A DNA stretch of 63,029 bases from Candidatus Tantalella remota (GTDB lineage: Bacteria; Omnitrophota; Gorgyraeia; Tantalellales; Tantalellaceae): assembly GCA_030765685.1 (NCBI GenBank), contig JAVCCB010000085.1:1-63029 (forward strand). Direction: 5' to 3'. Shown here one piece after another: positions 1 through 14,759 of the stretch. A program made the translations under genes and the position numbers. Position 1 is the stretch's first letter, and each line of letters opens with the position of its first letter. The notes beneath the pieces are model-generated. The model was not told where the DNA came from, searched no databases, and was given only the letters and a program-made list of their open reading frames with translations.

Positions 1-53
1 GAATATTCGGTCCCGGTAACCAGATACAGGCTGTTATTTATTATTTTATCCAT
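1..53 (-). CDS. 5' end of a thiamine-pathway gene, probably thiamine-phosphate synthase (ThiE-like); runs off the window
   Basis: ATG at 53 reads MDKIINNSLYLVTGTEY. SLYLVT resembles the ThiE N-terminus, and the gene lies directly downstream of a TPP riboswitch. Confidence 0.5.
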   Translation of the reverse strand, partial: MDKIINNSLYLVTGTEY

Positions 54-80
54 AAAAAAACCCCGCGCTGCCGCACAGGG
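54..80 (-). terminator. Intrinsic terminator (riboswitch expression platform)
   Basis: Minus strand CCCTGTGC-GGCA-GCGCGGGG followed by T7, between the aptamer and the ATG. Confidence 0.75.
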
Positions 81-83
81 TCC

Positions 84-236
84 TCACCTCCCTACGCTGG
101 CATTATCCAGCTGCCACAACAATGTTTTTATTGCAGCAGTCCGCCATAGTTTTAGCGATGGCGGATCAGGTTAAACGGGTAATCCGCCTTCAACCGGCGG
201 AACTCTCAGAGGCCGTACGCCCTCCCCGGAAACATC
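84..236 (-). ncRNA. TPP riboswitch aptamer with expanded P3 and a 54-nt insertion at J4/5
   Basis: Minus strand shows GGGGAG...CTGAGA...ACCCG..AACCTGAT[54 nt]CTGGATAATGCCAGCGTAGGGAG, i.e. all hallmark TPP motifs. Confidence 0.88.
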
Positions 237-389
237 TGTCACAACTGATTAGACCATATATCCTTAAGGGTGTCAATATCTATGTAAAAGGCCCGAAACA
301 GTAGTTTTTTATGGTATTTGGGAGGGCTTTTATATATAATCATTAGACAATAAACATATGACAACAAGGTCATATGAAAAGGAGCAATC

Positions 390-1922
390 ATGAATCTAAG
401 CATATGCAGTAAATGTAAAAAAACCGTACCTGTTGACCATAAACAGGAGAACGGAAAAGAATATCTTGTAAAGAAATGTCCGGAATGCGGCGAAACTACC
501 GAACTTGTCTCTAACGACTCATCTCAGTACAACAGAAAACGCGACGCGATGAGCGGTGAGGATTATCCCGGCTGTTCTATGAACTGTCTTCAATGCACTC
601 ACAGGCTTCCGAATATCGTCTTTATCGAGACTACCAACCGCTGTAACATGAACTGCCCTATCTGCATCACGAACGTACCTTCGATGGGTTTTGAATTCGA
701 ACCAAAAATGGAATATTTTGAGAAGATATTCAAGCATTACTCGCAGTTCGAGTTCCCGCCTTCAATACAGCTTTTCGGCGGAGAACCTACGATGCGCGAC
801 GACATCTTCGATGTCATCAACCTGGCGAAATCCTACGAACTCTCAGTCAGGCTCGTCACCAACGGTCTGAAGATGGCCGACGAAGCCTATTGCGAAAAAG
901 TTATGTCCTCAGGCGCGGCCGTCCTGATATCTTTTGACGGCCTGAAGCGAGAGATGTACGAAGCCCTCCGCGCTTCCGGATCGTATCTCGACATCAAGAC
1001 AAAAGCATTGGAAAACATCTCAAAACGCAAAAGTGGTAAAGTCGTCCTTATGACGGTAATGGACAAAAACATGAACGGCGAAGATATGCCGCTGTTCCTG
1101 GATTACTGCTTAAAACATCCGCGGACGGTACGCGGGATCTTTCTCATGCCGCTTGCCCATGTATGGTCGGAGAACCGGCTTGATTATAAACCTGAAAGGA
1201 CGACGCCGGAAGACGTCGAAAAGATAGTGGATGATTCTGTTGAAGGCGATGTAGAGTTCATCCCGCTCGGAGCTATGAACTTTAAGAACCTGGCCAGGAT
1301 ATTCAAAATAAAGAACATGCCTTTCGTGGGCGTTCACCCCAACTGCGAAAGTTTTACTTTACTTATGTCCAACGGCGAAAAATACATATCTTTTAACACT
1401 TATCTTAAGTACGACGCCCTATCATGGGTCAATGATATAAGAAAAGTCGACGGCAAAGGCAAGCGGTACCTCGAAAAACCCACAGGAGCCTGGGGAAAAG
1501 CCCTTCTGTCGCTTTCCGTGGCGGGCATTTTTATCAAACACGCTAACATGGGCGCTATAGTCGGCGCCAAAGGGTTTCAGGCGTTCTGGAAATGGATGCG
1601 GTTCTTCGGATCGCTTCTCACGGGAAAGAAGTTCAAGGACGTCCTTAAGGAGCAGACCCGGATAAAAGGCATCCTGCAGGTGCTCTTGCTCCCGTTCGAG
1701 GACGACTGTACGATAGAAAGCGAACGGCTTGAAAAATGTTCCTCCTGTTTCGCCTACATAGACACAGCCACTGACAGTATAAGAAATATCCCCTTCTGTA
1801 TCTGGGAAAAGTACAAGAACGTCATAATGAAAGATATGGCTATAGCCTACAATAAGGACGGGTATACCAAAGGCCTTGAAGGCGAAACAATAAAAACCGG
1901 ACAGGTGGTGGATAATGCTTAA
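390..1922 (+). CDS. Radical SAM protein, Tes/GDGT-MAS (MJ0619)-like
   Basis: N-terminal CSKC...CPECG metal site, CSMNCLQCTH, RS motif CNMNCPIC, GGEPT, and C-terminal HPNC / EKCSSC / IPFC. Confidence 0.75.
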   Translation: MNLSICSKCKKTVPVDHKQENGKEYLVKKCPECGETTELVSNDSSQYNRKRDAMSGEDYPGCSMNCLQCTHRLPNIVFIETTNRCNMNCPICITNVPSMGFEFEPKMEYFEKIFKHYSQFEFPPSIQLFGGEPTMRDDIFDVINLAKSYELSVRLVTNGLKMADEAYCEKVMSSGAAVLISFDGLKREMYEALRASGSYLDIKTKALENISKRKSGKVVLMTVMDKNMNGEDMPLFLDYCLKHPRTVRGIFLMPLAHVWSENRLDYKPERTTPEDVEKIVDDSVEGDVEFIPLGAMNFKNLARIFKIKNMPFVGVHPNCESFTLLMSNGEKYISFNTYLKYDALSWVNDIRKVDGKGKRYLEKPTGAWGKALLSLSVAGIFIKHANMGAIVGAKGFQAFWKWMRFFGSLLTGKKFKDVLKEQTRIKGILQVLLLPFEDDCTIESERLEKCSSCFAYIDTATDSIRNIPFCIWEKYKNVIMKDMAIAYNKDGYTKGLEGETIKTGQVVDNA

Positions 1923-3429
1923 CAGAGACGTGAACGCGCTGTGCCCCAAGTGCAATAAGCAGGTCAAAGGCAGCATATACGAAAAAGACGGAAAAGTGTT
2001 CCTCCGCAAGGAATGCGCCGAAGACGGTATCATCGTAGATATGCTCTCATCTAACGCGCAGCTTTTCCGGGACAGGATGAGCCTGCTTGACCATGCCGCG
2101 CCGAACAAGTGCAGCATGGAGAAGTGCTCTCGCGGTATATTTAACTGCCCGGATCACGTAAGTAAGAAATCACCTCTCGCTTTTATCGAGATCACCACAA
2201 ACTGCAATATGAGATGTCCCGTATGCTACGTGAACGCCGCGGAGAAAGGCCGTGACATGCCTTTTGAGGACATCTGCCGTATCATAGATACCATAGCCGA
2301 CATGGACAAGGACACCCACGTCATCCTTATAGGCGGCGAGCCGACGATACATAAGGATTTTTTCAAGATACTCAAAAAGATCGAGTCGAAGGGGCTGATG
2401 AAAAGAACGTTCATCGCCACTAACGGTATCACGCTTGCCAACAAAGAGTTCTGCAAAAAAGTACAGAACGCGGGGATCAAAAAATTCTATCTGGGTTTCG
2501 ACGGTACCGACCGTGAGGCCTGCGAAAAAATACGCGGGACTTACCTGGCTTACGATTCCGTCAGAAAAGCACTCGAAAACATACGCGAGAACGGAAAAGC
2601 GTGGATCATACTATCGATAACCGCGGTCCGGGATCTGAACGTCGAAGATATCCCCTCGGCGATCGAATTCGCTCTTGATAATTCCGATATAGTAAAAAGG
2701 ATAATGGTCTCACCCGAAGTTTACTGCGGCAGGATAAACGAAAACGACGACCTTTCAGAGAACCGGCTTACCGGCGACTGCATAGAAGATTATCTCAGAA
2801 ACACCCTGGGGATAAAAGTCGCTACGGTATCGATAAGCCTTTTCTTCACGCTCATAAAGCCCCTTAAAAGCATGGGTATCCTCGACTCCGAAAGCTGGAT
2901 GGCGGGTATGCCGAGTCCTTTCTGCGGCCAGATGGGGCTTCTCTGGAAAAAAAACGACGGGAAGTATTTTTCCATCGTGGATTTTCTGGTCAAGAACGCG
3001 GCTGAAAAAGTATATGATCTTGGAAGACGTGCCGGAAAATTCGCAGAAAAAGTAGACCGCGTCAAAACTCGTCTTTCGGGGACAATCGCGGGGCGGATAC
3101 TCTGGAAGGCCACCGTTTACCTGTACTTCATCCCGGCCTATTTCTTCATGATATTCAGCTATCTCAACAAAGGCAACCTCTTCTCCTTTCTCGGAGGGCT
3201 GATAATGGCCGGGTTTAATATAAAAAAGTTTAAGACGGAATTTTTCGGCAGAAAAATAGAACTTTTTTATCTTCTCGGGTCGGATAAGTTCAACTATATC
3301 TGGGACAAGATGCCGTACTGCCTTACGCATCATTACCGCATCCATCCTGATACGAACGAGGTCATAAAGCTGCCGGGTTGTTTTGTTTTTTCTTTCAGGG
3401 AAGAGTTAGAGAAAACCGCCGCGAAGTAA
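1915..3429 (+). CDS. Second radical SAM protein, Tes/GDGT-MAS-like paralog
   Basis: LCPKC...KVFLRKEC, CPDH, RS motif CNMRCPVC, GGEPT, SPFC, PYC...LPGC. Start overlaps the upstream stop. Confidence 0.75.
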   Translation: MLNRDVNALCPKCNKQVKGSIYEKDGKVFLRKECAEDGIIVDMLSSNAQLFRDRMSLLDHAAPNKCSMEKCSRGIFNCPDHVSKKSPLAFIEITTNCNMRCPVCYVNAAEKGRDMPFEDICRIIDTIADMDKDTHVILIGGEPTIHKDFFKILKKIESKGLMKRTFIATNGITLANKEFCKKVQNAGIKKFYLGFDGTDREACEKIRGTYLAYDSVRKALENIRENGKAWIILSITAVRDLNVEDIPSAIEFALDNSDIVKRIMVSPEVYCGRINENDDLSENRLTGDCIEDYLRNTLGIKVATVSISLFFTLIKPLKSMGILDSESWMAGMPSPFCGQMGLLWKKNDGKYFSIVDFLVKNAAEKVYDLGRRAGKFAEKVDRVKTRLSGTIAGRILWKATVYLYFIPAYFFMIFSYLNKGNLFSFLGGLIMAGFNIKKFKTEFFGRKIELFYLLGSDKFNYIWDKMPYCLTHHYRIHPDTNEVIKLPGCFVFSFREELEKTAAK

Positions 3430-3438: not shown

Positions 3439-5619
3439 TCATATCCTCTGGAGATCTATCTGGTTAAGTTCCGTATCCACAGAGATCACCCTCACTCTTA
3501 TCTTATCTCCGACGGATACCACTTCATGCGGGTCCTTTACGAATTTATTACTCAGGTTGGATATATGGACGAGGCCGTCCTGATGCACTCCCACATCCAC
3601 GAAAGCCCCGAAATTGGTGACATTGGTAACTTTTCCGAAAAGTTTCATGTCGGGTTTGAGGTCTTCGATCTCCGTCACGTCCTGCTCGAACTCTATGCTG
3701 CTGAACTCTTCGCGCGGATCAAGGCCCGGTTTCTTGAGCTCTTTGATTATATCCTGAAGCGTCGGCAATCCTACCTCATCCGTAACGTACTTTTTCGGGT
3801 TTATCTTTGATATATCGTCGGCGCTACCGATAAGCTTTTCAACTGGCACGCTGATGTCTTCGGCCATTTTCCTCACGATATAATAGCTTTCCGGGTGTAT
3901 CGACGAATTATCAAGAGGCACTTTGCTATTACGTATCCTCAAAAATCCGGCGCATTGCTCGAAAGCTTTGTCTCCGAGCATGAACACTTTTAAGAGATCG
4001 TCTCTTTTCGTGAACGGGCCTTTCTCCTGGCGGTGCTTTACTATTTCCTTGGCCAGTGAAGAACCTATCCCCGCCACGTAAGAAAGCAGTTCTTTTGAAG
4101 ACGTGTTGAGTTCCACGCCTACAAAGTTAACGCATGACTCGACCGACGACTGCAGGGACTTTCTGAGATACGATTGGTTGACGTCATGCTGATACTGCCC
4201 TACTCCGATGGATTTCGGATCTATCTTGACCAGTTCGGACAGCGGGTCCTGGAGACGACGGGCGATGCTTATCGCTCCGCGTACCGTGACATCAAGATCC
4301 GGGAACTCGTCTATAGCCACTTCTGACGCGGAATAAACGGAAGCTCCGGCTTCGGAAACGCTAATGACCTTGGTATCCGCGTAAGGGGTATCTTTTATGG
4401 TCTTCTTTACGAAAGACATGGTCTCCCTTGAGGCGGTACCGTTACCCACGGCTATAAGCTCTGTTTTATATTTTCTTATAAGCTTTAATATGGTTTCCCT
4501 CGAATCCTTAATATACTCCTGCGGCGAATGCGGGAAGATAGGTATATATTCCAAAAAACGGCCGTAATCGTCTATCACTACCACCTTGCAGCCTGACCTG
4601 AACCCGGGATCGACTCCCATTATCACTTTGTGGCCGGCGGGAGACTCCAGAAGAAGGTTTTTGAGGTTTTTCGAGAACACACCTATCGATTCGGCCTCAG
4701 CTTCCTGAAGCCTTTTGGAAAACACCTCAAACTCCAGAGAGACGGCTATCTTGGTATACGCCGCGTCTATCGCGGCCCACATGCCTTCTATCAGGACAAA
4801 GGTCTTGTCAGTAACGGCGCGCGACGATATATAGCTTACCGCTTCCTCTTTATCCAGCTCCAGCTTCCAGGATATCACCTTTTCGGTGGAGCCCCTTCTT
4901 ATCGCGAGCAGCCTGTGAGCCGGCACGTCCTTGATATATTCGCGTGAATTATAATATTTTTCGAATTTGGATTTTTGCCCGTCCCATGCTTTCCGAACTT
5001 TCGTGACTATCACTCCCTGTTTCTCGAACAGGTCCCTGAGCTTGCCGCGAATCTCGGCGTTCTCCGCGATAAATTCCGCCACTATATCGACGGCTCCGGC
5101 AAGGGCGTCTTCGGGCGTCTCCACTCCTTTTCCGGGATCGACAAAAGCGTTCAGTATCTCCTCGCGAGTCTTGTCGGTCTCCTCCTGCTTTACGATGATA
5201 CCCGCGAGCGGACCCAGCCCCTTCTCCCGGGCGAGAGAGCCTTTAGTGTTCTTCTTGGGTTTGTACGGAAGGTACAGGTCTTCAAGGAGGTTCTTATCCC
5301 TGCATTTTATGATCTTGTCTTTAAGCGCGGGATTAAGCTTGCCCTGGGAATCTATTGTGTTAAGGATAGTTTCTTTGCGTTTTTCAAGGTCGGCGTAATA
5401 ATGCAGCTTCTCCTCTATGGCGCGTATTTTCCTTTCGTCCAGGCCGCCGGTCTTCTCTTTTCTGTATCGGGAGATAAAAGGCACGGTACCTCCCGAGAGC
5501 AAAAGCTCGACGGTGCTCACTACGGGACCCACCTCGATGGAAAGGTCTTCTGTTATATTCCTGTATATGGAAGAGGAATCAGGAGTGTATACGCTCTTTT
5601 TAACGGTGTCAACGCTCAC
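3439..5619 (-). CDS. tex: Tex RNA-binding transcription accessory protein
   Basis: TVPFISRYRKEKTGGLDE, GVDPGFRSGCK, KSIGVGQYQHDV, and a C-terminal S1 domain (FGAFVDVGVHQDGLVHIS). Confidence 0.95.
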   Translation of the reverse strand: MSVDTVKKSVYTPDSSSIYRNITEDLSIEVGPVVSTVELLLSGGTVPFISRYRKEKTGGLDERKIRAIEEKLHYYADLEKRKETILNTIDSQGKLNPALKDKIIKCRDKNLLEDLYLPYKPKKNTKGSLAREKGLGPLAGIIVKQEETDKTREEILNAFVDPGKGVETPEDALAGAVDIVAEFIAENAEIRGKLRDLFEKQGVIVTKVRKAWDGQKSKFEKYYNSREYIKDVPAHRLLAIRRGSTEKVISWKLELDKEEAVSYISSRAVTDKTFVLIEGMWAAIDAAYTKIAVSLEFEVFSKRLQEAEAESIGVFSKNLKNLLLESPAGHKVIMGVDPGFRSGCKVVVIDDYGRFLEYIPIFPHSPQEYIKDSRETILKLIRKYKTELIAVGNGTASRETMSFVKKTIKDTPYADTKVISVSEAGASVYSASEVAIDEFPDLDVTVRGAISIARRLQDPLSELVKIDPKSIGVGQYQHDVNQSYLRKSLQSSVESCVNFVGVELNTSSKELLSYVAGIGSSLAKEIVKHRQEKGPFTKRDDLLKVFMLGDKAFEQCAGFLRIRNSKVPLDNSSIHPESYYIVRKMAEDISVPVEKLIGSADDISKINPKKYVTDEVGLPTLQDIIKELKKPGLDPREEFSSIEFEQDVTEIEDLKPDMKLFGKVTNVTNFGAFVDVGVHQDGLVHISNLSNKFVKDPHEVVSVGDKIRVRVISVDTELNQIDLQRI

Positions 5620-7118
5620 TTTATCTTACGCGCTCCCGGTAGAACGGCCTCGATCACCTTCGGCATCTGGCCATAAATATTCTGGTAGATATCGTTAAAC
5701 CTGTCTTTTCCGCCGGCGAACTCGAACGCGAGGGGCATTGCCTCTTTCGCGCGGGCGGTCATCATCCGGGATATGTTCTGTATATCCCACTGCGCGTGGG
5801 CGTCTTCCCGGAGCCGTGATATGTGATAGAGTTCCCTCGCGTTAACCTTAATAAGCACCCTTTTTCTGTGCGCATTCGTGAGAATATACGGCGCCGCTAG
5901 GGGACTTTCCTTTCTTATCTTCTCGTACACCTCAACCGTTTTGTCGGCTATCTCGCGAAAATACGGTTCCATTCCGATCTCTTTTACCGATTCGGGAACG
6001 GTTATGCCCAAAGAAGGATCATATTCCTGCGATGTTATCGTCGCCATGCGATGCCTTTTAAGCTGGCCGAAACAAGCGGACGAAAGGACTATATTGAACG
6101 TCAGGTTCGCGTACTCGAACTCCCTCAACATGGAATCATAAAACTGCATGTTGCGCCAAGCCACCTTAAAGATCTCCTTTTTCTGGTCTTCCAGCATACC
6201 CTTCACCGCGACTTTACACTGGTCATAAGAAAGATCCGACGAGACATGTAAGAGCGACGCGGAGAGAAGGTCATCGCCTTCCGGCGTATACTCTACAAGT
6301 TCCACTTCCCCCACCTCTCCGGCGGACGGTTCAACCGTCAGTTTAGCGGCGAGTTCCTTGAGTTCCGGATATGTCAAAAGGTCCCTGTCGTTAGCTTCGT
6401 TAAAAATAACCACCGACGGAGCGACTTCGGATACTTCCCGGTAAAGCGCTCTACCGAGCTCTTTCACTTCGGCGAGCGGATGCGACGCGAACCTCCTCAG
6501 AAGAAGTTCCATATTACGCGCGTTTATCGTCTGACCTACCTGGGCTTCGGTGGCAAGAGCCGTAATATACCTGGCGTCCTCTTTAGCCCAGCCTTCGAGC
6601 ATATTATGTTTTTTTGGATCGGTGGCAAGATCGGAAAATTTTTCGAATACGTGTTTTTGCAGTTTTTGCAAAAGCTTCGCATACGCTTCATTCTGCAGGC
6701 GCACCATGCCTGTGAAGTCCTTCTCAAGCGAGGTACCTTTTATCTCGGCGGGAACGACAAAATCCTTATCGAGGGTTATATATCTCTGAGATTTTTCCGT
6801 ATAGGCGCACAGGCGGAACTTCTCCACTTCTTCCATCACTAGTCGCGATACCCCGATTATGTCCAGATTGAAGACCGCGTGTTCGGCGACGGAATGATGC
6901 CCCATCTTGAATATTATGCTCGTGTTGGATCTGCGGGACTTTTTCACTTCCTTCCGGGCGTCTTTTCTTATTTCGTCAATAGGCCTGGGGTCGCGGCTGA
7001 TACGCGCGTATGCCGCCGAGATGACTTCAGGAGTTATATCTTCCCTCTTGCCCGCCTTATCTTCAAGTTCCTTCAGAACCGACGTATCGACATTGTATCC
7101 TGCTAAACTTACTTTCAT
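5616..7118 (-). CDS. thyX: FAD-dependent thymidylate synthase with tandem ThyX domains
   Basis: GHHSVAEH, EKSQRY and EDARY in domain 1; QLKRHR and LREDAHAQWDI in domain 2; 500 aa. Confidence 0.85.
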   Translation of the reverse strand: MKVSLAGYNVDTSVLKELEDKAGKREDITPEVISAAYARISRDPRPIDEIRKDARKEVKKSRRSNTSIIFKMGHHSVAEHAVFNLDIIGVSRLVMEEVEKFRLCAYTEKSQRYITLDKDFVVPAEIKGTSLEKDFTGMVRLQNEAYAKLLQKLQKHVFEKFSDLATDPKKHNMLEGWAKEDARYITALATEAQVGQTINARNMELLLRRFASHPLAEVKELGRALYREVSEVAPSVVIFNEANDRDLLTYPELKELAAKLTVEPSAGEVGEVELVEYTPEGDDLLSASLLHVSSDLSYDQCKVAVKGMLEDQKKEIFKVAWRNMQFYDSMLREFEYANLTFNIVLSSACFGQLKRHRMATITSQEYDPSLGITVPESVKEIGMEPYFREIADKTVEVYEKIRKESPLAAPYILTNAHRKRVLIKVNARELYHISRLREDAHAQWDIQNISRMMTARAKEAMPLAFEFAGGKDRFNDIYQNIYGQMPKVIEAVLPGARKIK

Positions 7119-9113: not shown

Positions 9114-9557
9114 CTAAACGATTTCCGGGACGGATCCGGGACCCTCTTTCTCGAACCCGTTGTTCATGAGGGACGCTATGGTAATACCTTTGAGCTCTCC
9201 AGCCACATATCCTTCCATATGATCAAGTTTTTCTTTAAGATAGCAGGTATTAATATAGGGACAGACCCTGCCCTTAAAAAGATGTTCGGTAAGATGGAAT
9301 GGGCCCTGAAATATAACGACAAGATTGAACACTGTGATATTTTCCGGATCCCTGATCAGTTTGAATCCTCCACCGCGCCCCTTGAAAGACTGAAGTATAC
9401 CTTTTTTATTAAGTATCTGCAGTACCCTTCTTAAGTAAGCTTTAGGCATCTCAAGCTCCTCGGTAAGATCCCGGACAGTGACTATTTTTTCTTTCTTCCC
9501 GGCAATGCACGTCAAAGTCCTTATCGCGTAATCGGTATCTCTTGTTATCATCTTCAT
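9114..9557 (-). CDS. Rrf2 family transcriptional regulator
   Basis: ITRDTDYAIR, GRGGGFKL, and residual CPYINTC cysteines. Confidence 0.92.
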   Translation of the reverse strand: MKMITRDTDYAIRTLTCIAGKKEKIVTVRDLTEELEMPKAYLRRVLQILNKKGILQSFKGRGGGFKLIRDPENITVFNLVVIFQGPFHLTEHLFKGRVCPYINTCYLKEKLDHMEGYVAGELKGITIASLMNNGFEKEGPGSVPEIV

Positions 9558-10186
9558 TTGAATATCACCCCTGTTTCTGCTGACCAGAATAAAAGATCAA
9601 GTTCGACCATTGGTATACCTATTCTGTCTGAAAATCGTCTAAGTCTGCCCTCCAGGCTTAAATACCTTTTTTCCGTCAAAGTCTTCGGTACTTCTTTTAT
9701 GATCCCGAATCTTATCATGTTCTTCAGGATATGAACGTCCAGTATCGCCAGGTCCCTTCCGAAACCTATGTTCCTTAAAAAATGACTGGCTTCTTTAAAC
9801 CCTATCCCCTTCACGTTCCGGACCAGCCAGTGCCTCGTGGCAGGGATATCATCTTCGTCTATCCTGCCTTTTATCCTGATACCGCGTTTTTCGGTAAAAA
9901 GATCGCGCGTTTCAACGATATAGCGAGCCTTATTGTTCGGGAACCGCACGGCTTTGAGGCCTACCCTTATCTGCTCCGCGCTGCCTTTATAAAGAACACC
10001 GCTTTTCACAAGTCCCGCTACGGCTTTATCACACTGGATCGCGCTGGACTGGGGCGTACAGATACAAAAACAAAGCTCACTGAAGATCCTTTTTTCCGAT
10101 TCTCCCCAGACAGCCTCGAACTCTTTAAGCCTCTTTTTTATAGCTCTTTTCTGTCGCTGGTACTCGCCTGCTAATGCCTTTTTCAT
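9554..10186 (-). CDS. ogg: N-glycosylase/DNA lyase (8-oxoguanine, Thermotoga/archaeal Ogg type)
   Basis: ELCFCICTPQS, VRFPNNKA, HhH VKGIGFKEASHFLRNIG, AILDVHIL. Confidence 0.9.
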   Translation of the reverse strand: MKKALAGEYQRQKRAIKKRLKEFEAVWGESEKRIFSELCFCICTPQSSAIQCDKAVAGLVKSGVLYKGSAEQIRVGLKAVRFPNNKARYIVETRDLFTEKRGIRIKGRIDEDDIPATRHWLVRNVKGIGFKEASHFLRNIGFGRDLAILDVHILKNMIRFGIIKEVPKTLTEKRYLSLEGRLRRFSDRIGIPMVELDLLFWSAETGVIFK

Positions 10187-10371
10187 GATACATATTCAAT
10201 AAGCTTCTTCGCGATGCTAATATGCATGATCTCATCATCACGTATATCGGTCAGCTTTTTTCTGATATCCTCATCCTTTACCTGATCAATAAGATGTTCA
10301 TAGAAATGCTTTGCCCGCTCTTCGTAGGTCAGTATCTTCTGAAACTCTTTGAGCAGCATCTCAGTATTCAT
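10183..10371 (-). CDS. Small ferritin-like (two-helix, half-rubrerythrin) protein
   Basis: EERAKHFY...IRDDEIMH diiron-type motifs in 62 aa. Confidence 0.7.
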   Translation of the reverse strand: MNTEMLLKEFQKILTYEERAKHFYEHLIDQVKDEDIRKKLTDIRDDEIMHISIAKKLIEYVS

Positions 10372-10603
10372 TTTTTCCCCCTGCCTCCACCTGGGATATC
10401 ATATTCTCGACAGCTTCTTTATGCCTGGAAGAATCCCGGTACAGTACTGACAAAAGTTTCTTTATATCTTTTCTCTTTGCCTCATCAAGCCCCTCGGTCT
10501 CATCGACCAATGCCTGAGAAAAGTGCGTAAACAGGGTCACCATGCCCTCTTCGACGTATATCAGCTCGTTAAGCGATGCTATAAGTCTTTCTTTTATCAT
10601 CAT
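10361..10603 (-). CDS. Small ferritin-like (two-helix) protein
   Basis: VEEGMVTLF...DSSRH degenerate ferritin-like helix pair, 80 aa, translationally coupled to its neighbours. Confidence 0.6.
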   Translation of the reverse strand: MMIKERLIASLNELIYVEEGMVTLFTHFSQALVDETEGLDEAKRKDIKKLLSVLYRDSSRHKEAVENMISQVEAGGKNEY

Positions 10604-10610
10604 AAAACGG

Positions 10611-11531
10611 TCACCACGTTTCCTTTATCCTGGAAATGTAATTAAAAACTTTGAGGGTCGCTTTCGCCCCCTCGCCAGCGGCTATTATTATCTGTTTTTC
10701 GGGAACATCGGTCACGTCTCCGGCAGCGAACACCCCGGGGATATTGGTCTCATTACAATTATTTACCTTTATCTCCCCGACATCGTTCTTCTCTATATCG
10801 CTTTGAAAAGAGGTATTCGGGACAAGGCCTATCTCGACAAATACGCCCTGAACGGAAAGTTCTTTTTCCTCTCCGTTTTCCAGATATTTTACCCTCTCGA
10901 CAAATTTGTCTCCCTCCACGGACTTAACAACAGAATTATTGATCACCGTTACATTGCCGGCTTTCAGCACTTTCTCGCGCATTATCGGGTCGCCTCCCAG
11001 GGCGGGAATATCGTTTATCATGTAGATCTTCGGAGATATTTTTATAAACTGGAGGACCGCTTCAAGCGCGGAGTTGCCTCCCCCAACGACTACGACGTCC
11101 TTGCCCGCGAAAAGCGGCGCGTCGCAGGTGGCGCAGTAGGCCAGCCCTTTGCCCCTGAATTCTTTTTCTCCGTCAACGCCGAGTTCTCTGGCTTTTTTCC
11201 CGGAAGCTATTATGACTGTTTTTGACAGGTAGGTGTTCTTGCTTGTAGTGGTCTGGATGTTGTTGTCTTTTTTCTCGATAGCCGTCACGGGTTCATTCTC
11301 CCGCACTTCGACTTCATATTTTTTGATATGTTCCTCGAATTTCATCGTGAGCTCTACCCCCGTGACAAACTGGTATCCTGTATAGTTCTCGATGTCCCCG
11401 CTCCATACGGTCTGCCCTCCGATATCCTCGGTAACAACGAGAAAAACCATTTGTTTGCGGGCGGCATACACGCTTGCCGTTATTCCCGCGGGGCCGGCTC
11501 CAACTATTATGAGGTCATATATCTTATCCAT
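10611..11531 (-). CDS. trxB: Thioredoxin reductase / AhpF-like NAD(P)H disulfide reductase
   Basis: GAGPAG, CATC redox motif, GGGNSA, GVFAAGDVT. Confidence 0.9.
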   Translation of the reverse strand: MDKIYDLIIVGAGPAGITASVYAARKQMVFLVVTEDIGGQTVWSGDIENYTGYQFVTGVELTMKFEEHIKKYEVEVRENEPVTAIEKKDNNIQTTTSKNTYLSKTVIIASGKKARELGVDGEKEFRGKGLAYCATCDAPLFAGKDVVVVGGGNSALEAVLQFIKISPKIYMINDIPALGGDPIMREKVLKAGNVTVINNSVVKSVEGDKFVERVKYLENGEEKELSVQGVFVEIGLVPNTSFQSDIEKNDVGEIKVNNCNETNIPGVFAAGDVTDVPEKQIIIAAGEGAKATLKVFNYISRIKETW

Positions 11532-11569
11532 TGGCTTCCTTAAAAAGACAGCTGTATTGAAAGATGCTA

Positions 11570-11809
11570 TTACGAAATACCGAGGGCCTGGGAGATCTTT
11601 TCCTTCTCAAACCCTACTATTATCTCGCCGTCTATATCAATAACAGGTACACCCATCTGGCCCGACTTATCCACCATCTCCTGCACTCTGTTATTATCTT
11701 CGGCAACATCGACGTTCTCGAATTCAATACTGTTCTCGGTCAGATATTCCTTGACCCTTACGCAATACGGACATGTGGGTGTTCCATATACGATGACATT
11801 TTTATCCAT
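11570..11809 (-). CDS. Glutaredoxin-like protein (YruB/NrdH family)
   Basis: CPYC and SGQMGVPVI. Confidence 0.92.
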   Translation of the reverse strand: MDKNVIVYGTPTCPYCVRVKEYLTENSIEFENVDVAEDNNRVQEMVDKSGQMGVPVIDIDGEIIVGFEKEKISQALGIS

Positions 11810-11826
11810 TCATACCCTCCCGGAGT

Positions 11827-12303
11827 TTAAAGTTGACCCGCAAACTCCTCCAGCTTTTGGAGATGTTCCTCCTCCTGCTCAAGGAGCGCGGCTACCAATG
11901 CCTGGCCGGATGCCGGGACCACTTTTTTGATGCCGTCAAAAAACAGAATAGAATCCTTTTCAAATTTTATTCCGATCTCGATAGCTTCCGCGTCGCTTTT
12001 GACACTTTTCCCTATCTCTCTTCCGACATCCGCCTGCGTAAACACATAGCCGCTCGCCAGGGCGTTCATATAGGCGAAGTATTCTTCCGGATAAGCCTCG
12101 GCAGGTTCGTATTTATTCACGGAAGCTAGAAGGTCCAAAAAAACATCTATATGCTTTTCCTCCGCGTCCGCCAGATACCGGAAGATCTCTTTCGCTTTTT
12201 CACTTTTCGAGTTAGCGACGACCTCTTTGTAAAAGTCCCTGCCGTTCTTCTCGATCTGTATACCTATCTCCACTATCTCGCTTCCGGAAAAGATATTACC
12301 CAT
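11827..12303 (-). CDS. Ferritin/rubrerythrin-like diiron protein
   Basis: IEKNGRDFY, AEEKH, FEKDSILFF, QEEEH. Confidence 0.88.
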   Translation of the reverse strand: MGNIFSGSEIVEIGIQIEKNGRDFYKEVVANSKSEKAKEIFRYLADAEEKHIDVFLDLLASVNKYEPAEAYPEEYFAYMNALASGYVFTQADVGREIGKSVKSDAEAIEIGIKFEKDSILFFDGIKKVVPASGQALVAALLEQEEEHLQKLEEFAGQL

Positions 12304-12332
12304 GACCCCTCCTTAAAAGAATCACCTTTTTA

Positions 12333-12908
12333 TTAATAGTTCTCAGCCAGCACTTCATAGTGTGCCTGGGGATGCAGGCACGCGGGGCATACCTCCGGAG
12401 CTTCCGGGCCCTCGTGCACATACCCGCAGTTGCGACAATGCCACTTTACAGGCGCGTCCTTTTTGAAGACCGTACCACCCTTAACATTGACCAGAAGAGC
12501 GCGATACCGCTTTTCATGCTGCTCTTCTACTTCCCCTATCTCCTTGAAAGTGGTTGCCACGTCATCAAGTCCTTCTTCAGCCGCCTTGTTGGCAAAATCT
12601 TTGTATATCATGGTCCATTCCATCTTTTCGCCGTCCGCCGCGGCTTCCAGGTTCTCGGCAGTGGTACCTATTTTTCCGGCAGGATAACCGGCGGTTATTT
12701 CCACTTCGCCTCCTTCGAGGAACTTGAAAAACCTCTTTGCATGCTCTTTTTCGTTCTCGGCCGTCTCCAGAAATATAGCAGCTATCTGCTCGTATCCCGC
12801 TTTTTTGGCGGCACTCGCGAAATACGTATACCTGTTCCTTGCCTGTGATTCTCCCGCGAATGACGCGAGAAGATTTTTTTCAGTCTGTGTTCCTTTTACA
12901 CTTGCCAT
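12333..12908 (-). CDS. rbr: Rubrerythrin
   Basis: FAGESQARNRYTYF, ENEKEHAK, and C-terminal CRNCG...CPAC. Confidence 0.95.
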   Translation of the reverse strand: MASVKGTQTEKNLLASFAGESQARNRYTYFASAAKKAGYEQIAAIFLETAENEKEHAKRFFKFLEGGEVEITAGYPAGKIGTTAENLEAAADGEKMEWTMIYKDFANKAAEEGLDDVATTFKEIGEVEEQHEKRYRALLVNVKGGTVFKKDAPVKWHCRNCGYVHEGPEAPEVCPACLHPQAHYEVLAENY

Positions 12909-12986
12909 CTCTTTCACCTCTTCCTTTATTTTTAATGAAACTAGGGTTTACACGAACACCGTGAGTATAAACCCTATAGTCGAATT

Positions 12987-13062
12987 AACCCCGCCCCTTT
13001 GGCAGTTTCTTTTTCAATAACTTCTTTTTACTCCTTTTTTCCAAATGCCCAAAGGGGCTGGG
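12987..13062. repeat. CCCCGCCCYTTTGGCA inverted-repeat element
   Basis: AACCCCGCCCCTTTGGCAG ... TGCCCAAAGGGGCTGGG; related copy at 15523-15573. Confidence 0.55.
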
Positions 13063-13096
13063 TAAGTGCGGCTTTGTAACTTATGTTCACTTTGTT

Positions 13097-13141
13097 TCCG
13101 CCTTCGCTAAACTATTTAGATAGCATTTAGCTACGGCGGAC
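13097..13141. repeat. TCCGCC...GGCGGA palindromic (REP-like) element with internal hairpin
   Basis: Reverse complement GTCCGCCGTAGC[18 nt]TTTAGCGAAGGCGGA matches 139-165 and 19272-19339. Confidence 0.7.
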
Positions 13142-13164
13142 TTTGCCATAAGTTACAACCTTCC

Positions 13165-13584
13165 TTACGCCTTCCACAACATGTGCACCGTGCAAAACTC
13201 GCGGACTTCCACGATATCATCTTTTGATACGCAGCAGAAATGAGCTTCCGGCGCGTCTCCGGGCTTAAGCTCCGCCCTGAGAACATTATCTTTAGTGAGC
13301 ACCTCAATGAACTTGATATAATGAGCATCTTCCATCGGATGTGCCACACTGCCAACTTTTACTTTTATACATACGTCCTCTTCTCCGCAACAGTCACAGG
13401 AGCTGGTAGCCTTCCCTGTCTCTTCTATCACCGGAACGTGTTTTTCTCCTCCAACATCCTCTGTTTTGGCTTCCATCTTACCCATAGGCTGACCGCAGCA
13501 GACAAGCGCCGGGGCGCCTTCGTTCGCTATTTCAACTATGTTACCGCATATTTCGCATCTGTAAAGTTCTCTTAAAACTGTCAT
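13165..13584 (-). CDS. dfx: Desulfoferrodoxin (superoxide reductase)
   Basis: CEICGN...LVCCG centre I; EKHVP, HPM...H and CTVH centre II. Confidence 0.93.
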   Translation of the reverse strand: MTVLRELYRCEICGNIVEIANEGAPALVCCGQPMGKMEAKTEDVGGEKHVPVIEETGKATSSCDCCGEEDVCIKVKVGSVAHPMEDAHYIKFIEVLTKDNVLRAELKPGDAPEAHFCCVSKDDIVEVREFCTVHMLWKA

Positions 13585-14747
13585 GAGATTGCCTCCTTAA
13601 CTTTCTCTTTTACACTTTCAAGCACACTTGTTGACGGTACATATTCGGCCTTTATCGGCTCGGCCACATCAAATCCGCAGCTTTTAAGTATTTCGTCTAT
13701 CTGTCCGATACTCTGCCCGCCCCATCCATACGATCCGAAAGCGAGAGCCTTTCTGTTCTTCGGCGCCAGACCTTTCATATATGTCAGAAAGGCAGCAACT
13801 GTCGGCAGCATCCCGTTATTTAACGTGGGCGATCCTACAAAGATATACTCGGCGGTCAAAAGCTGTGTCATTACGTCCGAGATATGCGTCGTCTGCAGAT
13901 GCGCCATTTGTACTTCGATGTTTTTTTCCTCAAACGCGTTCTCTATGGACTTCGCGATCTTTTCCGTCGACCCCCACATGGTATCGTATACAATGACCGC
14001 CTTGTGGTCCTGTTCGTTTGCAGACCATTTTTTGTACAGTTCTATAATCTCCGGTATGTGCTTACGCCAGATAAGACCGTGACTCGGGCCTATCATGTCT
14101 ATATCAAGTCCCGCGACCGCGGCCAGAGCTTTCTGAACCTGATTACCATACGGCAAAACTATGTTTGCGTAATATTTAGCCGCCTCTTCCTGGAGGATGT
14201 CCCAACCGAACTCATCATCGAACCTCTCGGACGAGGCTATGTGCTGGCCAAAAGCGTCATTCGGAAGAAGCAGTTTGTCTTCCGGAACATATGTCGCCAT
14301 GGAATCCGGCCAGTGGACCATCTGGGTAAGAACGAACCGGAGGATCCTCTTACCTATCGTGACTTCATCGCCGGTATTCACAACCTGGATGTTCCAGCCG
14401 TCGGTGTCATAATGTTTTTTAAGACCTTTTTCTCCGTTGGGAGAAGTCAACACGGTAGCGTTGGGGCAATGTTTAAGTATTTCCGGCAATGCCCCGGAAT
14501 GATCCATCTCAACATGATTACATACCACGTAGTCTATCGTTGACGGGTCTATTACACATTTTATCCTTTCAAGCATTTCCTCGAACAGGTAATGCTTGAC
14601 CGTGTCTACAAGGACTACTTTCTCGTCAACAATGAGGTAAGAATTGTAGGTGGATCCTCTCTGGGTGAGGTAGCCGTGGAAATTTCTGAGATCCCAGTCT
14701 ACACCACCCACCCAGTGGATATCTTTTTTTATCTCGATTGGTTTCAT
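13581..14747 (-). CDS. fprA: Flavodiiron protein (O2/NO reductase)
   Basis: HVEMDHSG, HWPDS, NDAFGQH, and flavodoxin domain YDTMWGST...FGSYGWGG. Confidence 0.95.
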   Translation of the reverse strand: MKPIEIKKDIHWVGGVDWDLRNFHGYLTQRGSTYNSYLIVDEKVVLVDTVKHYLFEEMLERIKCVIDPSTIDYVVCNHVEMDHSGALPEILKHCPNATVLTSPNGEKGLKKHYDTDGWNIQVVNTGDEVTIGKRILRFVLTQMVHWPDSMATYVPEDKLLLPNDAFGQHIASSERFDDEFGWDILQEEAAKYYANIVLPYGNQVQKALAAVAGLDIDMIGPSHGLIWRKHIPEIIELYKKWSANEQDHKAVIVYDTMWGSTEKIAKSIENAFEEKNIEVQMAHLQTTHISDVMTQLLTAEYIFVGSPTLNNGMLPTVAAFLTYMKGLAPKNRKALAFGSYGWGGQSIGQIDEILKSCGFDVAEPIKAEYVPSTSVLESVKEKVKEAIS

Positions 14748-14759
14748 GGCAGTTTCAGA

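What the first reader, a model, noticed from the sequence alone, without database searches (positions are those of the whole stretch)
390..3429. Tandem divergent paralogs of the tetraether-lipid synthase (Tes/GDGT-MAS)-like radical SAM family
Seen: two coupled ~505-aa radical SAM genes, each with an N-terminal CxxC...CxxC/D metal site, a second Cys/His cluster before the RS motif, a hydrophobic insert and C-terminal Cys motifs. They differ in ligands (CPECG vs CAEDG; HPNC vs SPFC; IPFC vs LPGC). Established: this architecture matches MJ0619/Tes, which forms C(sp3)-C(sp3) bonds between lipid tails. Inference: a heterodimer or two-step enzyme making membrane-spanning or otherwise cross-linked lipids in a bacterium. 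No lipid or RiPP precursor gene is adjacent.
Basis: partly seen in the sequence, partly recalled or inferred. Interest (0 to 1): 0.7.

Follow-up and report, generated by a model that had tools for sequence, protein, structure and literature searches.

The report
Paired Tes-like radical SAM lipid enzymes
Two overlapping genes in an uncultured anaerobe (Omnitrophota) encode ancient, very different copies of the enzyme type that archaea use to weld lipid tails together; the pair is always inherited together and in related bacteria sits beside lipid A genes, so it probably performs an undescribed membrane-lipid modification, not the known tetraether reaction.

Summary
ORF A (390-1922, 510 aa) and ORF B (1915-3429, 504 aa) overlap by 8 nt. 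Both have the full GDGT-MAS/Tes architecture: a zinc-ribbon/rubredoxin site, an N-terminal Cys3His cluster, CX3CX2C, a helical hydrophobic insert and three C-terminal Cys. AlphaFold models match 7TOL over the full length (TM 0.73-0.75).

Neither is a Tes orthologue:
- NCBIfam Tes scores are 180/182 bits against a cutoff of 450.
- Both are about 25% identical to true Tes and 23% to each other.
- Both fall outside the Tes+TrsS group in a tree (81% bootstrap).

They are two old, separate subfamilies. A-then-B with overlapping or abutting genes occurs in 23 of 23 informative species-level loci (Omnitrophota, Auribacterota, Verrucomicrobiota, UBP3), and their trees mirror each other (r=0.84).

The window has no adjacent lipid gene, but orthologous loci do. 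An LpxL-type lipid A acyltransferase follows B in 8 of 8 species of one sub-lineage (plus HldD in some). An ArnT-like glycosyltransferase precedes A in 3 species of the window's own sub-lineage.

Best reading: a two-subunit radical SAM system that modifies hydrocarbon tails of an envelope lipid, possibly lipid A. The brGDGT reading is unsupported. Function is untested anywhere.

The parts
335..340 (+). TATAAT -10-like hexamer upstream of gene A (candidate promoter)
   Evidence: Read directly from the sequence. The consensus scan did not list it because no good -35 is present. This is an inference.
355..376 (+). Perfect palindrome CATATGAC-N6-GTCATATG between the -10-like hexamer and the ribosome-binding site; a candidate operator or 5'-UTR hairpin
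   Evidence: reported as an 8-bp stem. Its function is unknown.
381..384 (+). Shine-Dalgarno GGAG, 5 nt before the ATG of gene A
390..1922 (+). Gene A: 510-aa GDGT-MAS-fold radical SAM protein of the A-type subfamily
399..512 (+). A: N-terminal zinc-ribbon / rubredoxin-like site (aa 4-41; C6, C9, C30, C33, all Cys)
   Evidence: Pfam PF23545. The four Cys are invariant in 49/49 sequences. They align to C9/C12/C33/H36 of GDGT-MAS.
573..602 (+). A: N-terminal auxiliary [4Fe-4S] ligands C62-x3-C66-x2-C69-x-H71
   Evidence: They align to C73/C77/C80+His of GDGT-MAS and are conserved in 47-49 of 49 sequences.
624..1103 (+). A: radical SAM core (aa 79-238) with C85-x3-C89-x2-C92 and GGEPT
   Evidence: Pfam PF04055 at 57.8 bits; invariant columns.
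1416..1655 (+). A: helical hydrophobic/amphipathic cap (aa 343-422), at the position of the lipid-pocket helices of GDGT-MAS
   Evidence: AF2 secondary structure; alignment to 7TOL; hydropathy.
1344..1799 (+). A: C-terminal auxiliary-cluster ligands C319 (HPNC), C450 and C470 (PFC); Leu434 replaces the labile Met439
   Evidence: Profile alignment to 7TOL; invariant in 49/49 sequences.
1915..3429 (+). Gene B: 504-aa GDGT-MAS-fold radical SAM protein of the B-type subfamily; its start overlaps A's stop by 8 nt
1927..2046 (+). B: N-terminal zinc-ribbon / rubredoxin-like site (C10, C13, C34, D37; position 37 is His in 23/33 relatives and Asp in 9/33)
   Evidence: Pfam PF23545; column counts.
2110..2157 (+). 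B: N-terminal auxiliary-cluster ligands with altered spacing, C66-x4-C71-x6-C78-x2-H81
   Evidence: Invariant in 33/33 sequences; aligned to 7TOL.
2185..2673 (+). B: radical SAM core (aa 91-253) with C97-x3-C101-x2-C104 and GGEPT
   Evidence: Pfam PF04055 at 88 bits; invariant columns.
2998..3246 (+). B: long, strongly hydrophobic helical cap (aa 362-444), a possible membrane-embedded anchor
   Evidence: AF2 helices 362-387, 391-414, 419-431 and 436-444. The clade mean of the maximum 19-residue hydropathy is 1.67 (up to 2.54), against 1.22 in Tes.
2923..3381 (+). B: C-terminal auxiliary-cluster ligands C337 (SPFC), C469 and C489 (PGC), plus invariant D457, N460 and Y474
   Evidence: Invariant in 33/33 sequences. 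Full-length Foldseek match to 7TOL. The register with GDGT-MAS was set by hand from the FxD...N...C motifs and is an inference.

Best explanation
Genes A and B encode a two-component enzyme system built from two ancient paralogs of the GDGT-MAS/Tes fold. Each subunit keeps a complete catalytic kit: a radical SAM [4Fe-4S] cluster with a SAM-binding GGE motif, a surface rubredoxin-like iron site, an N-terminal Cys3His [4Fe-4S] cluster for electron delivery, and a C-terminal three-Cys [4Fe-4S] cluster with an open iron next to a helical hydrophobic cap. By analogy with GDGT-MAS, each subunit would bind a hydrocarbon tail in the cap pocket and abstract a terminal or sub-terminal hydrogen with 5'-deoxyadenosyl radical. 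It would then park the carbon radical on a sulfide of the C-terminal cluster, and a second radical would resolve this into a C-C bond (or leave a C-S bond). The genes are translationally coupled and always inherited together. B has the more hydrophobic cap, so the most likely arrangement is a membrane-associated A:B heteromer, in which B anchors the complex and the two active sites handle two different tails or two successive couplings. The substrate is an envelope lipid. The best lead, from gene neighbours in related genomes, is an acyl chain of lipid A or an LPS precursor at the cytoplasmic face of the inner membrane, rather than a glycerol diether/diester. Shown: architecture, ligand conservation, fold, phylogenetic position, obligate pairing and neighbours. 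Inferred: the heteromer, the lipid substrate and the chemistry.
For: Fold and cofactor sites:
- Best PDB sequence hit is 7TOL, E 1e-40 for A and 5e-42 for B.
- Profile hits to 7TOL score 232 and 205 bits.
- AF2 models have pLDDT 88 and pTM 0.88. Foldseek against 7TOL/7TOM gives TM 0.73-0.75 over about 510-520 columns, while the next hits (TM about 0.33) cover only the radical SAM core.
- All ligand columns are invariant.

Pairing:
- An A-type gene lies directly upstream of B, on the same strand, overlapping by 8-20 nt or abutting it within 5 nt, in 23 of 23 informative species-level loci.
- The same holds in L001/2, L084-87 and L092-97.
- A and B distance matrices correlate at r=0.84, Mantel p<=0.0005.
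- Paired paralogs recur independently in this branch: L098 A2-A', L003, L027 and the L039 triple.

Lipid link:
- B's cap is more hydrophobic than that of Tes.
- An LpxL/HtrB-family acyltransferase (PF03279, 160-168 bits) lies 30-235 nt downstream of B in 8 of 8 species of the Auribacterota/Verrucomicrobiota/UBP3 sub-lineage. It is the only neighbour conserved across them and overlaps B by 18 nt in L022.
- HldD follows in L020/21/86/87.
- An ArnT-like GT-C transferase (best NCBIfam hit is the lipid IV(A) Ara4N transferase, 155-197 bits) lies 58-157 nt upstream of A in L005, L008 and L009.
- The mechanistic template is taken from PMC9433317.
Against: - There is no experimental datum for any bacterial member of this family.
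- Neither protein reaches the Tes cutoff, and both lie outside the Tes clade, so transferring function is an extrapolation.
- In this window no lipid gene flanks the pair: a TPP riboswitch reads away on one side and Tex converges on the other.
- In a third sub-lineage the neighbours are housekeeping genes (tadA, dnaX, recR).
- The LpxL-like and ArnT-like proteins are themselves below their equivalog cutoffs, so their own substrates are uncertain.
- GDGT-MAS was purified as a monomer, so a heteromer has no precedent.
- More distant A-type cousins sit beside cysteine-desulfurase and sulfur-carrier genes, which hints at other chemistry in the family.
- No A+B fusion protein was found.
- Model coordinates could not be inspected, so no lipid tunnel was measured.
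Confidence: 0.45

Rival explanations
1. The pair is a bacterial tetraether or membrane-spanning lipid synthase that couples the tails of glycerol-bound fatty acids or alkyl chains, making diabolic-acid-type or brGDGT-type lipids. The two paralogs would form the two C-C bonds, or handle the sn-1 and sn-2 chains.
For: - Same fold and cofactor set as GDGT-MAS.
- B's nearest relatives outside its own clade are canonical Tes proteins.
- Bacterial Tes homologues have been proposed as brGDGT synthases (PMC8941075).
- The host is an anaerobe, and Omnitrophota MAGs often carry ether-lipid genes such as elbD.
Against: - Both proteins fall outside the Tes clade and far below the equivalog cutoff.
- No glycerolipid or ether-lipid gene (plsA/Ger, ElbD, Mss) is near the pair in any of about 35 loci examined.
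- The conserved neighbours are LPS-type genes.
- Known producers of diabolic or iso-diabolic acid mostly lack Tes homologues.
- Archaeal Tes needs only one polypeptide for both bonds.
Confidence: 0.2
2. The pair does not act on membrane lipids. It belongs to a wider bacterial family (which includes TrsS) that performs other radical chemistry, for example inserting sulfur or selenium into, or cross-linking, a cofactor, metabolite or protein. The hydrophobic cap would simply bind another apolar substrate.
For: - TrsS scores nearly as well as Tes: 159/162 against 180/182 bits.
- More distant A-type cousins are next to Aminotran_5 (cysteine-desulfurase-like) genes in L003, L091 and L098, and next to a ThiF/JAB/PALP/sulfite reductase-TusA cluster in L090.
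- GDGT-MAS itself forms a C-S bond to its cluster and releases a thiolated lipid as a shunt product.
- The family was once annotated as a pterin methyltransferase.
Against: - The A-B pairs themselves are never next to sulfur-mobilisation genes in the loci examined.
- Their only recurrent neighbours are lipid A-type enzymes.
- The helical cap that forms the lipid pockets in GDGT-MAS is retained and is more hydrophobic, not less.
- No small precursor-peptide ORF is conserved beside the pair.
Confidence: 0.2
3. A and B are two independent monomeric enzymes that are adjacent only because of an old duplication kept in one operon. They act on different substrates or steps and do not interact physically.
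For: - GDGT-MAS is monomeric.
- Both proteins have complete catalytic motifs, so neither obviously depends on the other.
- No natural A-B fusion was found.
- The mirror-tree correlation can arise from shared vertical descent alone.
Against: - Order, strand and overlapping or abutting junctions are kept over roughly 40-50% sequence divergence and across several phyla, while the flanking genes turn over completely.
- B-core genes are never seen without A (23 of 23 loci).
- Hetero-pairs have arisen repeatedly in this branch, which is typical of obligate partners.
Confidence: 0.25

Closest known systems
GDGT-MAS / tetraether synthase Tes (MJ0619, PDB 7TOL/7TOM; NCBIfam NF045702)
   Same: - Same domain order and predicted fold over the whole length (TM 0.73-0.75).
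- Rubredoxin-like zinc ribbon, N-terminal Cys3His [4Fe-4S], CX3CX2C radical SAM cluster and C-terminal three-Cys [4Fe-4S].
- Helical hydrophobic cap where GDGT-MAS binds two lipids.
- Conserved FxD motif and an aromatic residue after the second C-terminal Cys.
   Different: - Only about 25% identity; HMM scores of 180/182 bits against a 450-bit cutoff.
- Separate clades in the tree.
- The labile Met439 is Leu in both proteins.
- In A the rubredoxin site is Cys4 and Tyr459 aligns to Phe.
- In B the N-cluster spacing is C-x4-C-x6-C-x2-H, and by sequence alone the C-terminal half no longer aligns to Tes.
- Two obligatorily paired genes instead of one.
- Bacterial (PVC-type phyla) rather than archaeal.
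- Neighbours are LPS genes, not archaeal lipid genes.
TrsS, radical SAM (seleno)protein (NCBIfam NF045646)
   Same: Same superfamily and the same N-terminal half (zinc ribbon, N-cluster, radical SAM core). It is bacterial, and its HMM scores are nearly as high as those for Tes.
   Different: - Scores are 159/162 bits against a 490-bit cutoff.
- True TrsS (for example Desulfovibrio L030, 554 bits) is about 450 aa, single-copy, and 31% identical to MJ0619, so it is closer to Tes than A or B are.
- No selenocysteine codon or selenium gene is near the pair.
Bacterial 'Tes homologues' proposed for brGDGT synthesis (Acidobacteria, Chloroflexota, Planctomycetota; PMC8941075, PMC11868695)
   Same: Bacterial members of the same superfamily, hypothesised to couple lipid tails, and experimentally untested.
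   Different: Those were defined by E<1e-50 (and usually >=30% identity) to archaeal Tes and are single genes. A and B probably miss these thresholds and form their own clades. Neither of those two papers lists Omnitrophota among the phyla with Tes homologues in the passages read.
Mss, membrane-spanning lipid synthase of Thermotoga/Thermoanaerobacter (PMC13159169)
   Same: A bacterial, anaerobic radical SAM enzyme that couples fatty-acid tails; it is the functional analogue of what is proposed here.
   Different: The authors describe it as only remotely related to Tes. No sequence comparison was made here, and no pairing is reported.
LpxXL / AcpXL very-long-chain fatty acid system of lipid A (Rhizobiales); recalled from general knowledge, not tested here
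   Same: A PF03279-family late acyltransferase dedicated to attaching an unusual, membrane-spanning acyl chain to lipid A. It is a precedent for an LpxL paralog being clustered with the genes that make a special acyl chain.
   Different: That system builds the chain with FAS-II paralogs and a special ACP, not with radical SAM enzymes.

Membership tests
Tes / GDGT-MAS (NF045702 equivalog) | Score at or above the curated NCBIfam cutoff (450 bits) | tested here: not met
   A scores 180.0 bits and B 181.6 bits. The A match spans the whole model (3-483/486); the B match covers only 3-292/486.
Tes / GDGT-MAS | Position inside the clade of experimentally supported Tes (MJ0619 and relatives) | tested here: not met
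   In an NJ tree of 111 sequences, the A-superclade and the B-clade each have 100% bootstrap, and they separate from Tes+TrsS at 81%. Mean identity is A-Tes 24.5%, B-Tes 25.4%, Tes-Tes 39%. The tree is distance-based only; no ML tree was run.
Tes / GDGT-MAS | Rubredoxin-like mononuclear Fe site C-x2-C...C-x2-H | tested here: met
   A has C6-x2-C9...C30-x2-C33 (Cys4, 49/49). B has C10-x2-C13...C34-x2-D37, where position 37 is His in 23/33 relatives and Asp in 9/33. The ligand identity varies, and metal binding was not tested.
Tes / GDGT-MAS | N-terminal auxiliary [4Fe-4S] on three Cys plus a conserved His | tested here: met
   A has C62-x3-C66-x2-C69-x-H71, the same spacing as C73/C77/C80 of GDGT-MAS. 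B has C66-x4-C71-x6-C78-x2-H81, with altered spacing but invariant in 33/33 sequences.
Tes / GDGT-MAS | Radical SAM CX3CX2C motif and GGE SAM-binding motif | tested here: met
   A has C85/C89/C92 and GGEPT; B has C97/C101/C104 and GGEPT. All are invariant.
Tes / GDGT-MAS | C-terminal auxiliary [4Fe-4S] on three Cys with an open or labile fourth site | tested here: met
   A's C319/C450/C470 align to the HQHC, RCC and PFC cysteines of 7TOL. B's C337/C469/C489 are invariant and lie in a region that superposes on 7TOL, but the register for B was set by hand.
Tes / GDGT-MAS | Labile Met439 ligand, strictly conserved in 1000 archaeal homologues | tested here: not met
   The aligned position is Leu434 in A (47/49) and Leu453 in B (31/33). 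The M439A variant of GDGT-MAS remains active, so this argues against membership, not against the mechanism.
Tes / GDGT-MAS | Tyr459, strictly conserved in archaeal homologues | tested here: inconclusive
   In A the profile alignment puts Phe454 there (47/49), with Tyr/Phe456 two residues later. B has an invariant Tyr474, one residue out of register. Y459F is active in GDGT-MAS.
Tes / GDGT-MAS | Full-length fold, including the helical lipid-binding cap | tested here: met
   Foldseek against 7TOL/7TOM gives TM 0.73-0.75 over 508-525 aligned columns for both models. The pocket geometry itself could not be inspected.
Tes / GDGT-MAS | Catalyses C(sp3)-C(sp3) coupling of lipid tails | not testable with these tools
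   This needs expression and lipidomics.
TrsS (NF045646 equivalog) | Score at or above the curated cutoff (490 bits) | tested here: not met
   A scores 159.3 bits and B 161.6 bits, with only the N-terminal ~290 residues matched. The positive control, L030 from Desulfovibrio, scores 554.5 bits.
SPASM/twitch radical SAM peptide maturases (including Gms) | C-terminal SPASM domain with a CxxCxxxxxC-type seven-Cys motif; adjacent precursor peptide | tested here: not met
   There is no SPASM Pfam hit. Matches to SPASM families cover only the radical SAM core. SuiB and SkfB reach only TM about 0.33. No small ORF is conserved next to the pair. Gms is a SPASM enzyme unrelated to Tes.
Mss (bacterial membrane-spanning lipid synthase) | Sequence homology to Tmari_0825 / T. 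ethanolicus Mss | not tested
The authors call Mss only remotely related to Tes.

The most novel reading that the evidence does not exclude
A and B form a heteromeric radical SAM 'tail-welding' enzyme. It would act on lipid A (or another outer-membrane glycolipid) while the lipid is still at the cytoplasmic face of the inner membrane. It would join the ends of acyl chains installed by the co-operonic LpxL-like transferase, giving a macrocyclic or cross-linked lipid A. This would be the bacterial outer-membrane counterpart of macrocyclic archaeol, and such a lipid A modification has never been described.
Probability: 0.15. Interest if true: 0.85.

Novelty: new variant of a known kind. Interest (0 to 1): 0.6.

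Why it matters
Tes/GDGT-MAS is the only enzyme of this fold with known chemistry, and that chemistry, coupling two unactivated sp3 carbons through an Fe-S cluster sulfide, is unusual. Bacterial relatives are invoked as the missing source of brGDGT palaeoclimate biomarkers, but none has been tested. This work shows three things about a sizeable bacterial branch:
- It lies outside Tes proper and is probably missed by the thresholds used in published screens.
- It works as obligate pairs of very divergent paralogs.
- In several phyla it is wired to lipid A-type genes rather than glycerolipid genes.

That cautions against reading every 'Tes homologue' in a MAG as tetraether potential. It also defines a concrete two-gene (or three-gene) cassette that can be expressed in E. 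coli to look for new lipid chemistry in uncultured PVC-group bacteria.

Tried and rejected
- An exact-sequence contig look-up of A found nothing.
- I searched for natural A+B fusion proteins as Rosetta-stone evidence for a complex. The long hits are intein-containing Tes (P0261) or unrelated multi-domain radical SAM proteins.
- Gms as a model for a second cross-linking step is rejected: it is a SPASM enzyme, not a Tes paralog.
- A RiPP maturase reading is rejected: there is no SPASM domain and no conserved small ORF.
- I searched the whole 63-kb window for LpxL-like, ArnT-like and HldD genes. None was found; there is only a GT9 heptosyltransferase at 44.6-46.0 kb.
- The metagenome scan seeded with the single A protein reached only 3 close relatives. 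An alignment query would have been the better use of that one scan, so the reverse test (does every A-type gene have a B?) rests on few loci. It also turned up a real exception, the A2-A' pair in L098.
- The Rfam gathering-threshold search of the upstream region found nothing. A relaxed search gave a sub-threshold but motif-complete TPP riboswitch that reads away from the pair.
- The promoter and terminator scans around the pair gave counts close to the shuffled expectation and are not used as evidence.
- Model coordinates are not exposed, so Cys-Cys distances and the lipid tunnel could not be measured.

Full report
THE OBSERVATION

The window contains two same-strand ORFs at exactly the coordinates given: A at 390..1922 (510 aa) and B at 1915..3429 (504 aa). 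B's ATG lies 8 nt inside A (…GGATAATGCTTAA…) in another frame, with a purine-rich stretch just upstream. Both proteins carry Pfam Zn_ribbon_HMPTM plus Radical_SAM. A and B are only 27% identical over about 400 residues, and their C-terminal quarters do not align by BLAST.

RELATION TO TES/GDGT-MAS

The best solved relative of both is GDGT-MAS of M. jannaschii (7TOL), at E 1e-40 and 5e-42. The next hits (MoaA, PqqE, SkfB) match only the radical SAM core. Profiles of each clade hit 7TOL at 232 bits (A, over chain residues 26-500) and 205 bits (B, over residues 21-375 only). AlphaFold2 models built on clade alignments are confident (pLDDT 87.9 and 88.7, pTM 0.88). Foldseek places 7TOL/7TOM first for both, with TM 0.73-0.75 over 508-525 columns. 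Everything else scores TM about 0.33. So B's C-terminal half, although unrecognisable by sequence, is predicted to keep the GDGT-MAS fold.

The published structure defines four cofactor sites (PMC9433317):
- a rubredoxin-type iron on C9-x2-C12…C33-x2-H36;
- an N-terminal [4Fe-4S] on C73/C77/C80 plus His;
- the CX3CX2C radical SAM cluster;
- a C-terminal [4Fe-4S] with a labile Met439, next to a conserved Tyr459.

Using the alignments (PDB chain numbering is native plus 20) and column counts in 49 A-type and 33 B-type sequences, the sites map as follows.

| Site | A | B |
|---|---|---|
| Rubredoxin-like | C6/C9/C30/C33 (a Cys4 variant) | C10/C13/C34 plus D37 (His in 23/33 relatives, Asp in 9/33) |
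| N-terminal cluster | C62-x3-C66-x2-C69-x-H71 | C66-x4-C71-x6-C78-x2-H81 |
| Radical SAM cluster | C85/C89/C92 | C97/C101/C104 |
| C-terminal Cys | C319/C450/C470 | C337/C469/C489 |

All these positions are invariant or nearly so. Met439 is Leu in both clades. Tyr459 aligns to Phe454 in A, with an aromatic residue two positions on. B has an invariant Tyr474 one residue out of register. The M439A and Y459F variants of GDGT-MAS are active, so these differences bear on family membership, not on mechanism. Both paralogs therefore look catalytically complete, and neither is a degenerate partner.

NOT TES ORTHOLOGUES

- NCBIfam's Tes equivalog model scores A at 180 and B at 182 bits against a 450-bit cutoff. 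TrsS scores almost as well (159/162 against 490). A Desulfovibrio control reaches 554 bits on TrsS.
- In an exhaustive phmmer search of 1.84 billion representatives, B's own clade has only about seven representatives (at least 279 bits). The next hit is at 164 bits. Those next hits are canonical Tes, 35-49% identical to MJ0619.
- A neighbour-joining tree (111 sequences, 484 columns, 200 bootstraps) gives 100% support to an A-superclade and to a B-clade. It separates them, together with another Omnitrophota subfamily, from Tes+TrsS at 81%. A+B as sisters gets only 57%.
- Mean identities are A-B 22.8%, A-Tes 24.5%, B-Tes 25.4%, Tes-Tes 39% and Tes-TrsS 31%.

The two genes are thus ancient paralogs, as far from each other as from archaeal Tes. 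The tree is distance-based, so an ML analysis is still needed.

THE PAIR IS A UNIT

A scan of one genome per GTDB species found 25 species with a full-length B-type gene (L004-L028; Omnitrophota, Auribacterota, Verrucomicrobiota including a Methylacidiphilum MAG, UBP3 and Tritonobacter).
- In 20 of them a complete or contig-cut A-type gene lies directly upstream on the same strand. It overlaps B by 8-20 nt or abuts it within 5 nt.
- Three more (L004, L016, L018) keep the 3′ end of an A-type gene up to the contig edge.
- L007 has no upstream sequence.
- L027 (Tritonobacter) instead has two B-like genes.

That is 23 of 23 informative B-core loci. The window's own locus and independent contigs agree (L001/2, L084-87, L092-94, L095-97). 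Across 20 pairs, A-A and B-B distances correlate at r=0.84 (Mantel p≤0.0005), and B evolves about 1.3 times faster. That is expected from co-inheritance and does not by itself prove contact.

Pairing recurs elsewhere in this bacterial branch:
- An A-type gene 61% identical to ours (P0014) is followed, with a 4-nt overlap, by a second A-type paralog (P0029). This is a duplication nested inside the Omnitrophota A clade.
- L003 has two plus one A-like genes.
- L090 has four.
- L039 has three genes of another subfamily.

B-core is never seen without A. A-type genes, however, can have other partners or, in more distant cousins, none (L089). No natural A-B fusion was found.

CONTEXT

In the window the pair stands alone. 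A sub-threshold but motif-complete TPP riboswitch (72-238, minus strand) reads away from it. A TATAAT hexamer, a perfect palindrome (355-376) and GGAG precede A. The Tex gene converges on B's stop. The rest of the window describes a strict anaerobe with LPS: rubrerythrins, desulfoferrodoxin, a flavodiiron protein, hybrid-cluster protein and a GT9 heptosyltransferase. It has no LpxL-, ArnT- or HldD-like gene.

Related loci are more informative. I clustered all ORFs within 4 kb of 21 pairs. In the Auribacterota/Verrucomicrobiota/UBP3 sub-lineage, the only neighbour shared across the sub-lineage is a 303-321-aa PF03279 protein of the LpxL/HtrB lipid A late-acyltransferase family (160-168 bits). 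It lies 30-235 nt downstream of B on the same strand in 8 of 8 species, and its called ORF overlaps B by 18 nt in L022. Its best NCBIfam matches are 'lipid A biosynthesis lauroyl acyltransferase' models, though below their cutoffs. In L020/21/86/87 the next gene is ADP-glyceromanno-heptose 6-epimerase, above its cutoff. In L084 and L086/87 an OmpA/Pal-LysM protein precedes A.

In the window's own sub-lineage, a GT-C glycosyltransferase lies 58-157 nt upstream of A on the same strand in L005, L008 and L009. Its best NCBIfam match is ArnT, the lipid IV(A) 4-amino-4-deoxy-L-arabinosyltransferase (155-197 bits, below cutoff). A third sub-lineage has only housekeeping neighbours: tadA, dnaX, recR.

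Two unrelated lipid A-modifying enzyme families thus flank the pair in two sub-lineages. No glycerolipid or ether-lipid gene does so anywhere.

THE HYDROPHOBIC INSERT

The region between the HPNC/SPFC strand and the C-terminal Cys motifs is predicted as a bundle of helices. It occupies the position of the amphipathic cap that forms the lipid pockets of GDGT-MAS. The maximum 19-residue Kyte-Doolittle hydropathy averages 1.67 in B-type proteins (up to 2.54), 1.40 in A-type and 1.22 in canonical Tes. B may therefore insert into the membrane. I could not inspect coordinates to confirm a tunnel.

LITERATURE

Bacterial Tes homologues are known only bioinformatically and are hypothesised to make brGDGTs (PMC8941075; PMC9433317; PMC11868695; the 2026 review PMC13459092). 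Known producers of diabolic and iso-diabolic acid mostly lack them, and some use the unrelated Mss instead (PMC13159169). Those screens required E<1e-50 and usually at least 30% identity, which A and B probably miss. I found no paper describing paired Tes-like genes or a Tes-like/LpxL association. Database names for these proteins are only 'radical SAM protein'.

INTERPRETATION

The best-supported reading is a two-subunit enzyme of the GDGT-MAS fold that activates C-H bonds on hydrocarbon tails of an envelope lipid. By analogy, it would couple them through the C-terminal cluster. The lipid A pathway is the best lead for the substrate. SAM and low-potential electrons are cytoplasmic, and LpxL acts at the cytoplasmic face of the inner membrane, so such chemistry would be topologically feasible there.

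This remains an inference, and I give it 0.45. Rivals:
- A non-lipid or sulfur-inserting role, suggested by cysteine-desulfurase and sulfur-carrier neighbours of more distant cousins: 0.2.
- Two independent monomeric enzymes rather than a complex (0.25). This question is separate from the choice of substrate.

VERDICT

The feature is a new, paired variant of a known enzyme kind, with an unexpected LPS-gene association. It is worth a heterologous-expression experiment.

Noticed in passing
window 72-238 (-), with a hairpin and T-run at about 30-70 (-): A likely TPP riboswitch reading leftwards out of the window. Rfam RF00059 scores only 28.2 bits (gathering score 54.3, E about 1e-3), but the CUGAGA, ACCUGAUC and GCGUAGGGA core motifs are all present. 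A 62-nt insertion in P3 explains the low score.
   Followed up: partly
window 355-376 (+): A perfect palindrome, CATATGAC-N6-GTCATATG, lies between a TATAAT hexamer (335-340) and the Shine-Dalgarno of gene A. It could be an operator or a 5'-UTR hairpin. I did not check whether it is conserved in relatives.
   Followed up: no
window 5616-7118 (-); L008/L094, L005/L092: A 500-aa ThyX with two Thy1 domains. It travels with the pair in Omnitrophota: it sits directly after B, overlapping it by 4 nt, in L094/L008; 616 nt downstream in L092/L005; and inverted behind Tex in this window and in L004.
   Followed up: partly
window 9114-19000 and 25020-25529: An oxygen/ROS-defence island typical of a strict anaerobe. 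It holds an Rrf2 regulator, an Ogg-like glycosylase, a TrxR-like flavoprotein, two rubrerythrin-type proteins, desulfoferrodoxin, a flavodiiron protein, ferritin, a ferredoxin-domain protein, hybrid-cluster protein and a peroxiredoxin.
   Followed up: partly
window 21319-24629 (-): A LolA-like protein next to an MMPL/RND-type transporter with a sterol-sensing-like domain, forming a possible lipid or lipoprotein export pair. It is 18 kb from the radical SAM pair and not linked to it in other loci.
   Followed up: no
window 35334-36970 (-): Adjacent LarB-like (AIR carboxylase family) and LarE-like (PP-loop) genes, suggesting biosynthesis of the nickel-pincer cofactor.
   Followed up: no
window 49977-50313 (-): A cspA thermoregulator RNA, the only Rfam hit above gathering score in the window (106 bits).
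   Followed up: no
L090 1-13509; L003 3037-11014; L091 4999-9608; L098 6518-11116: More distant A-type cousins sit beside sulfur-mobilisation genes. In L090, four paralogs follow a ThiF/JAB/PALP/sulfite reductase-TusA cluster. In L003, L091 and L098, a cysteine-desulfurase-like Aminotran_5 gene lies next to or between paralogs. This hints at sacrificial-cluster repair or sulfur insertion in part of the family.
   Followed up: partly
L039 5965-10150; L055 5977-8694; L069 2115-4852: Other Omnitrophota genomes carry two or three tandem ~450-aa paralogs of yet another subfamily of this superfamily. NCBIfam matches cover the radical SAM core only, and no N-terminal zinc-ribbon match was seen in the one tested.
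   Followed up: no
L027 3710-7164 (Candidatus Tritonobacter lacicola): The one B-clade genome without an A-type partner. It has two B-like genes (33% and 36% identical to B) separated by 279 nt.
   Followed up: no
L028 (MAG labelled Methylacidiphilum sp. IMS_BF): The A-B-LpxL-like cassette occurs in a MAG assigned to Methylacidiphilum. No other Methylacidiphilum record appeared among the loci returned by the species-representative scan. This may be a distinct lineage or a binning issue.
   Followed up: no
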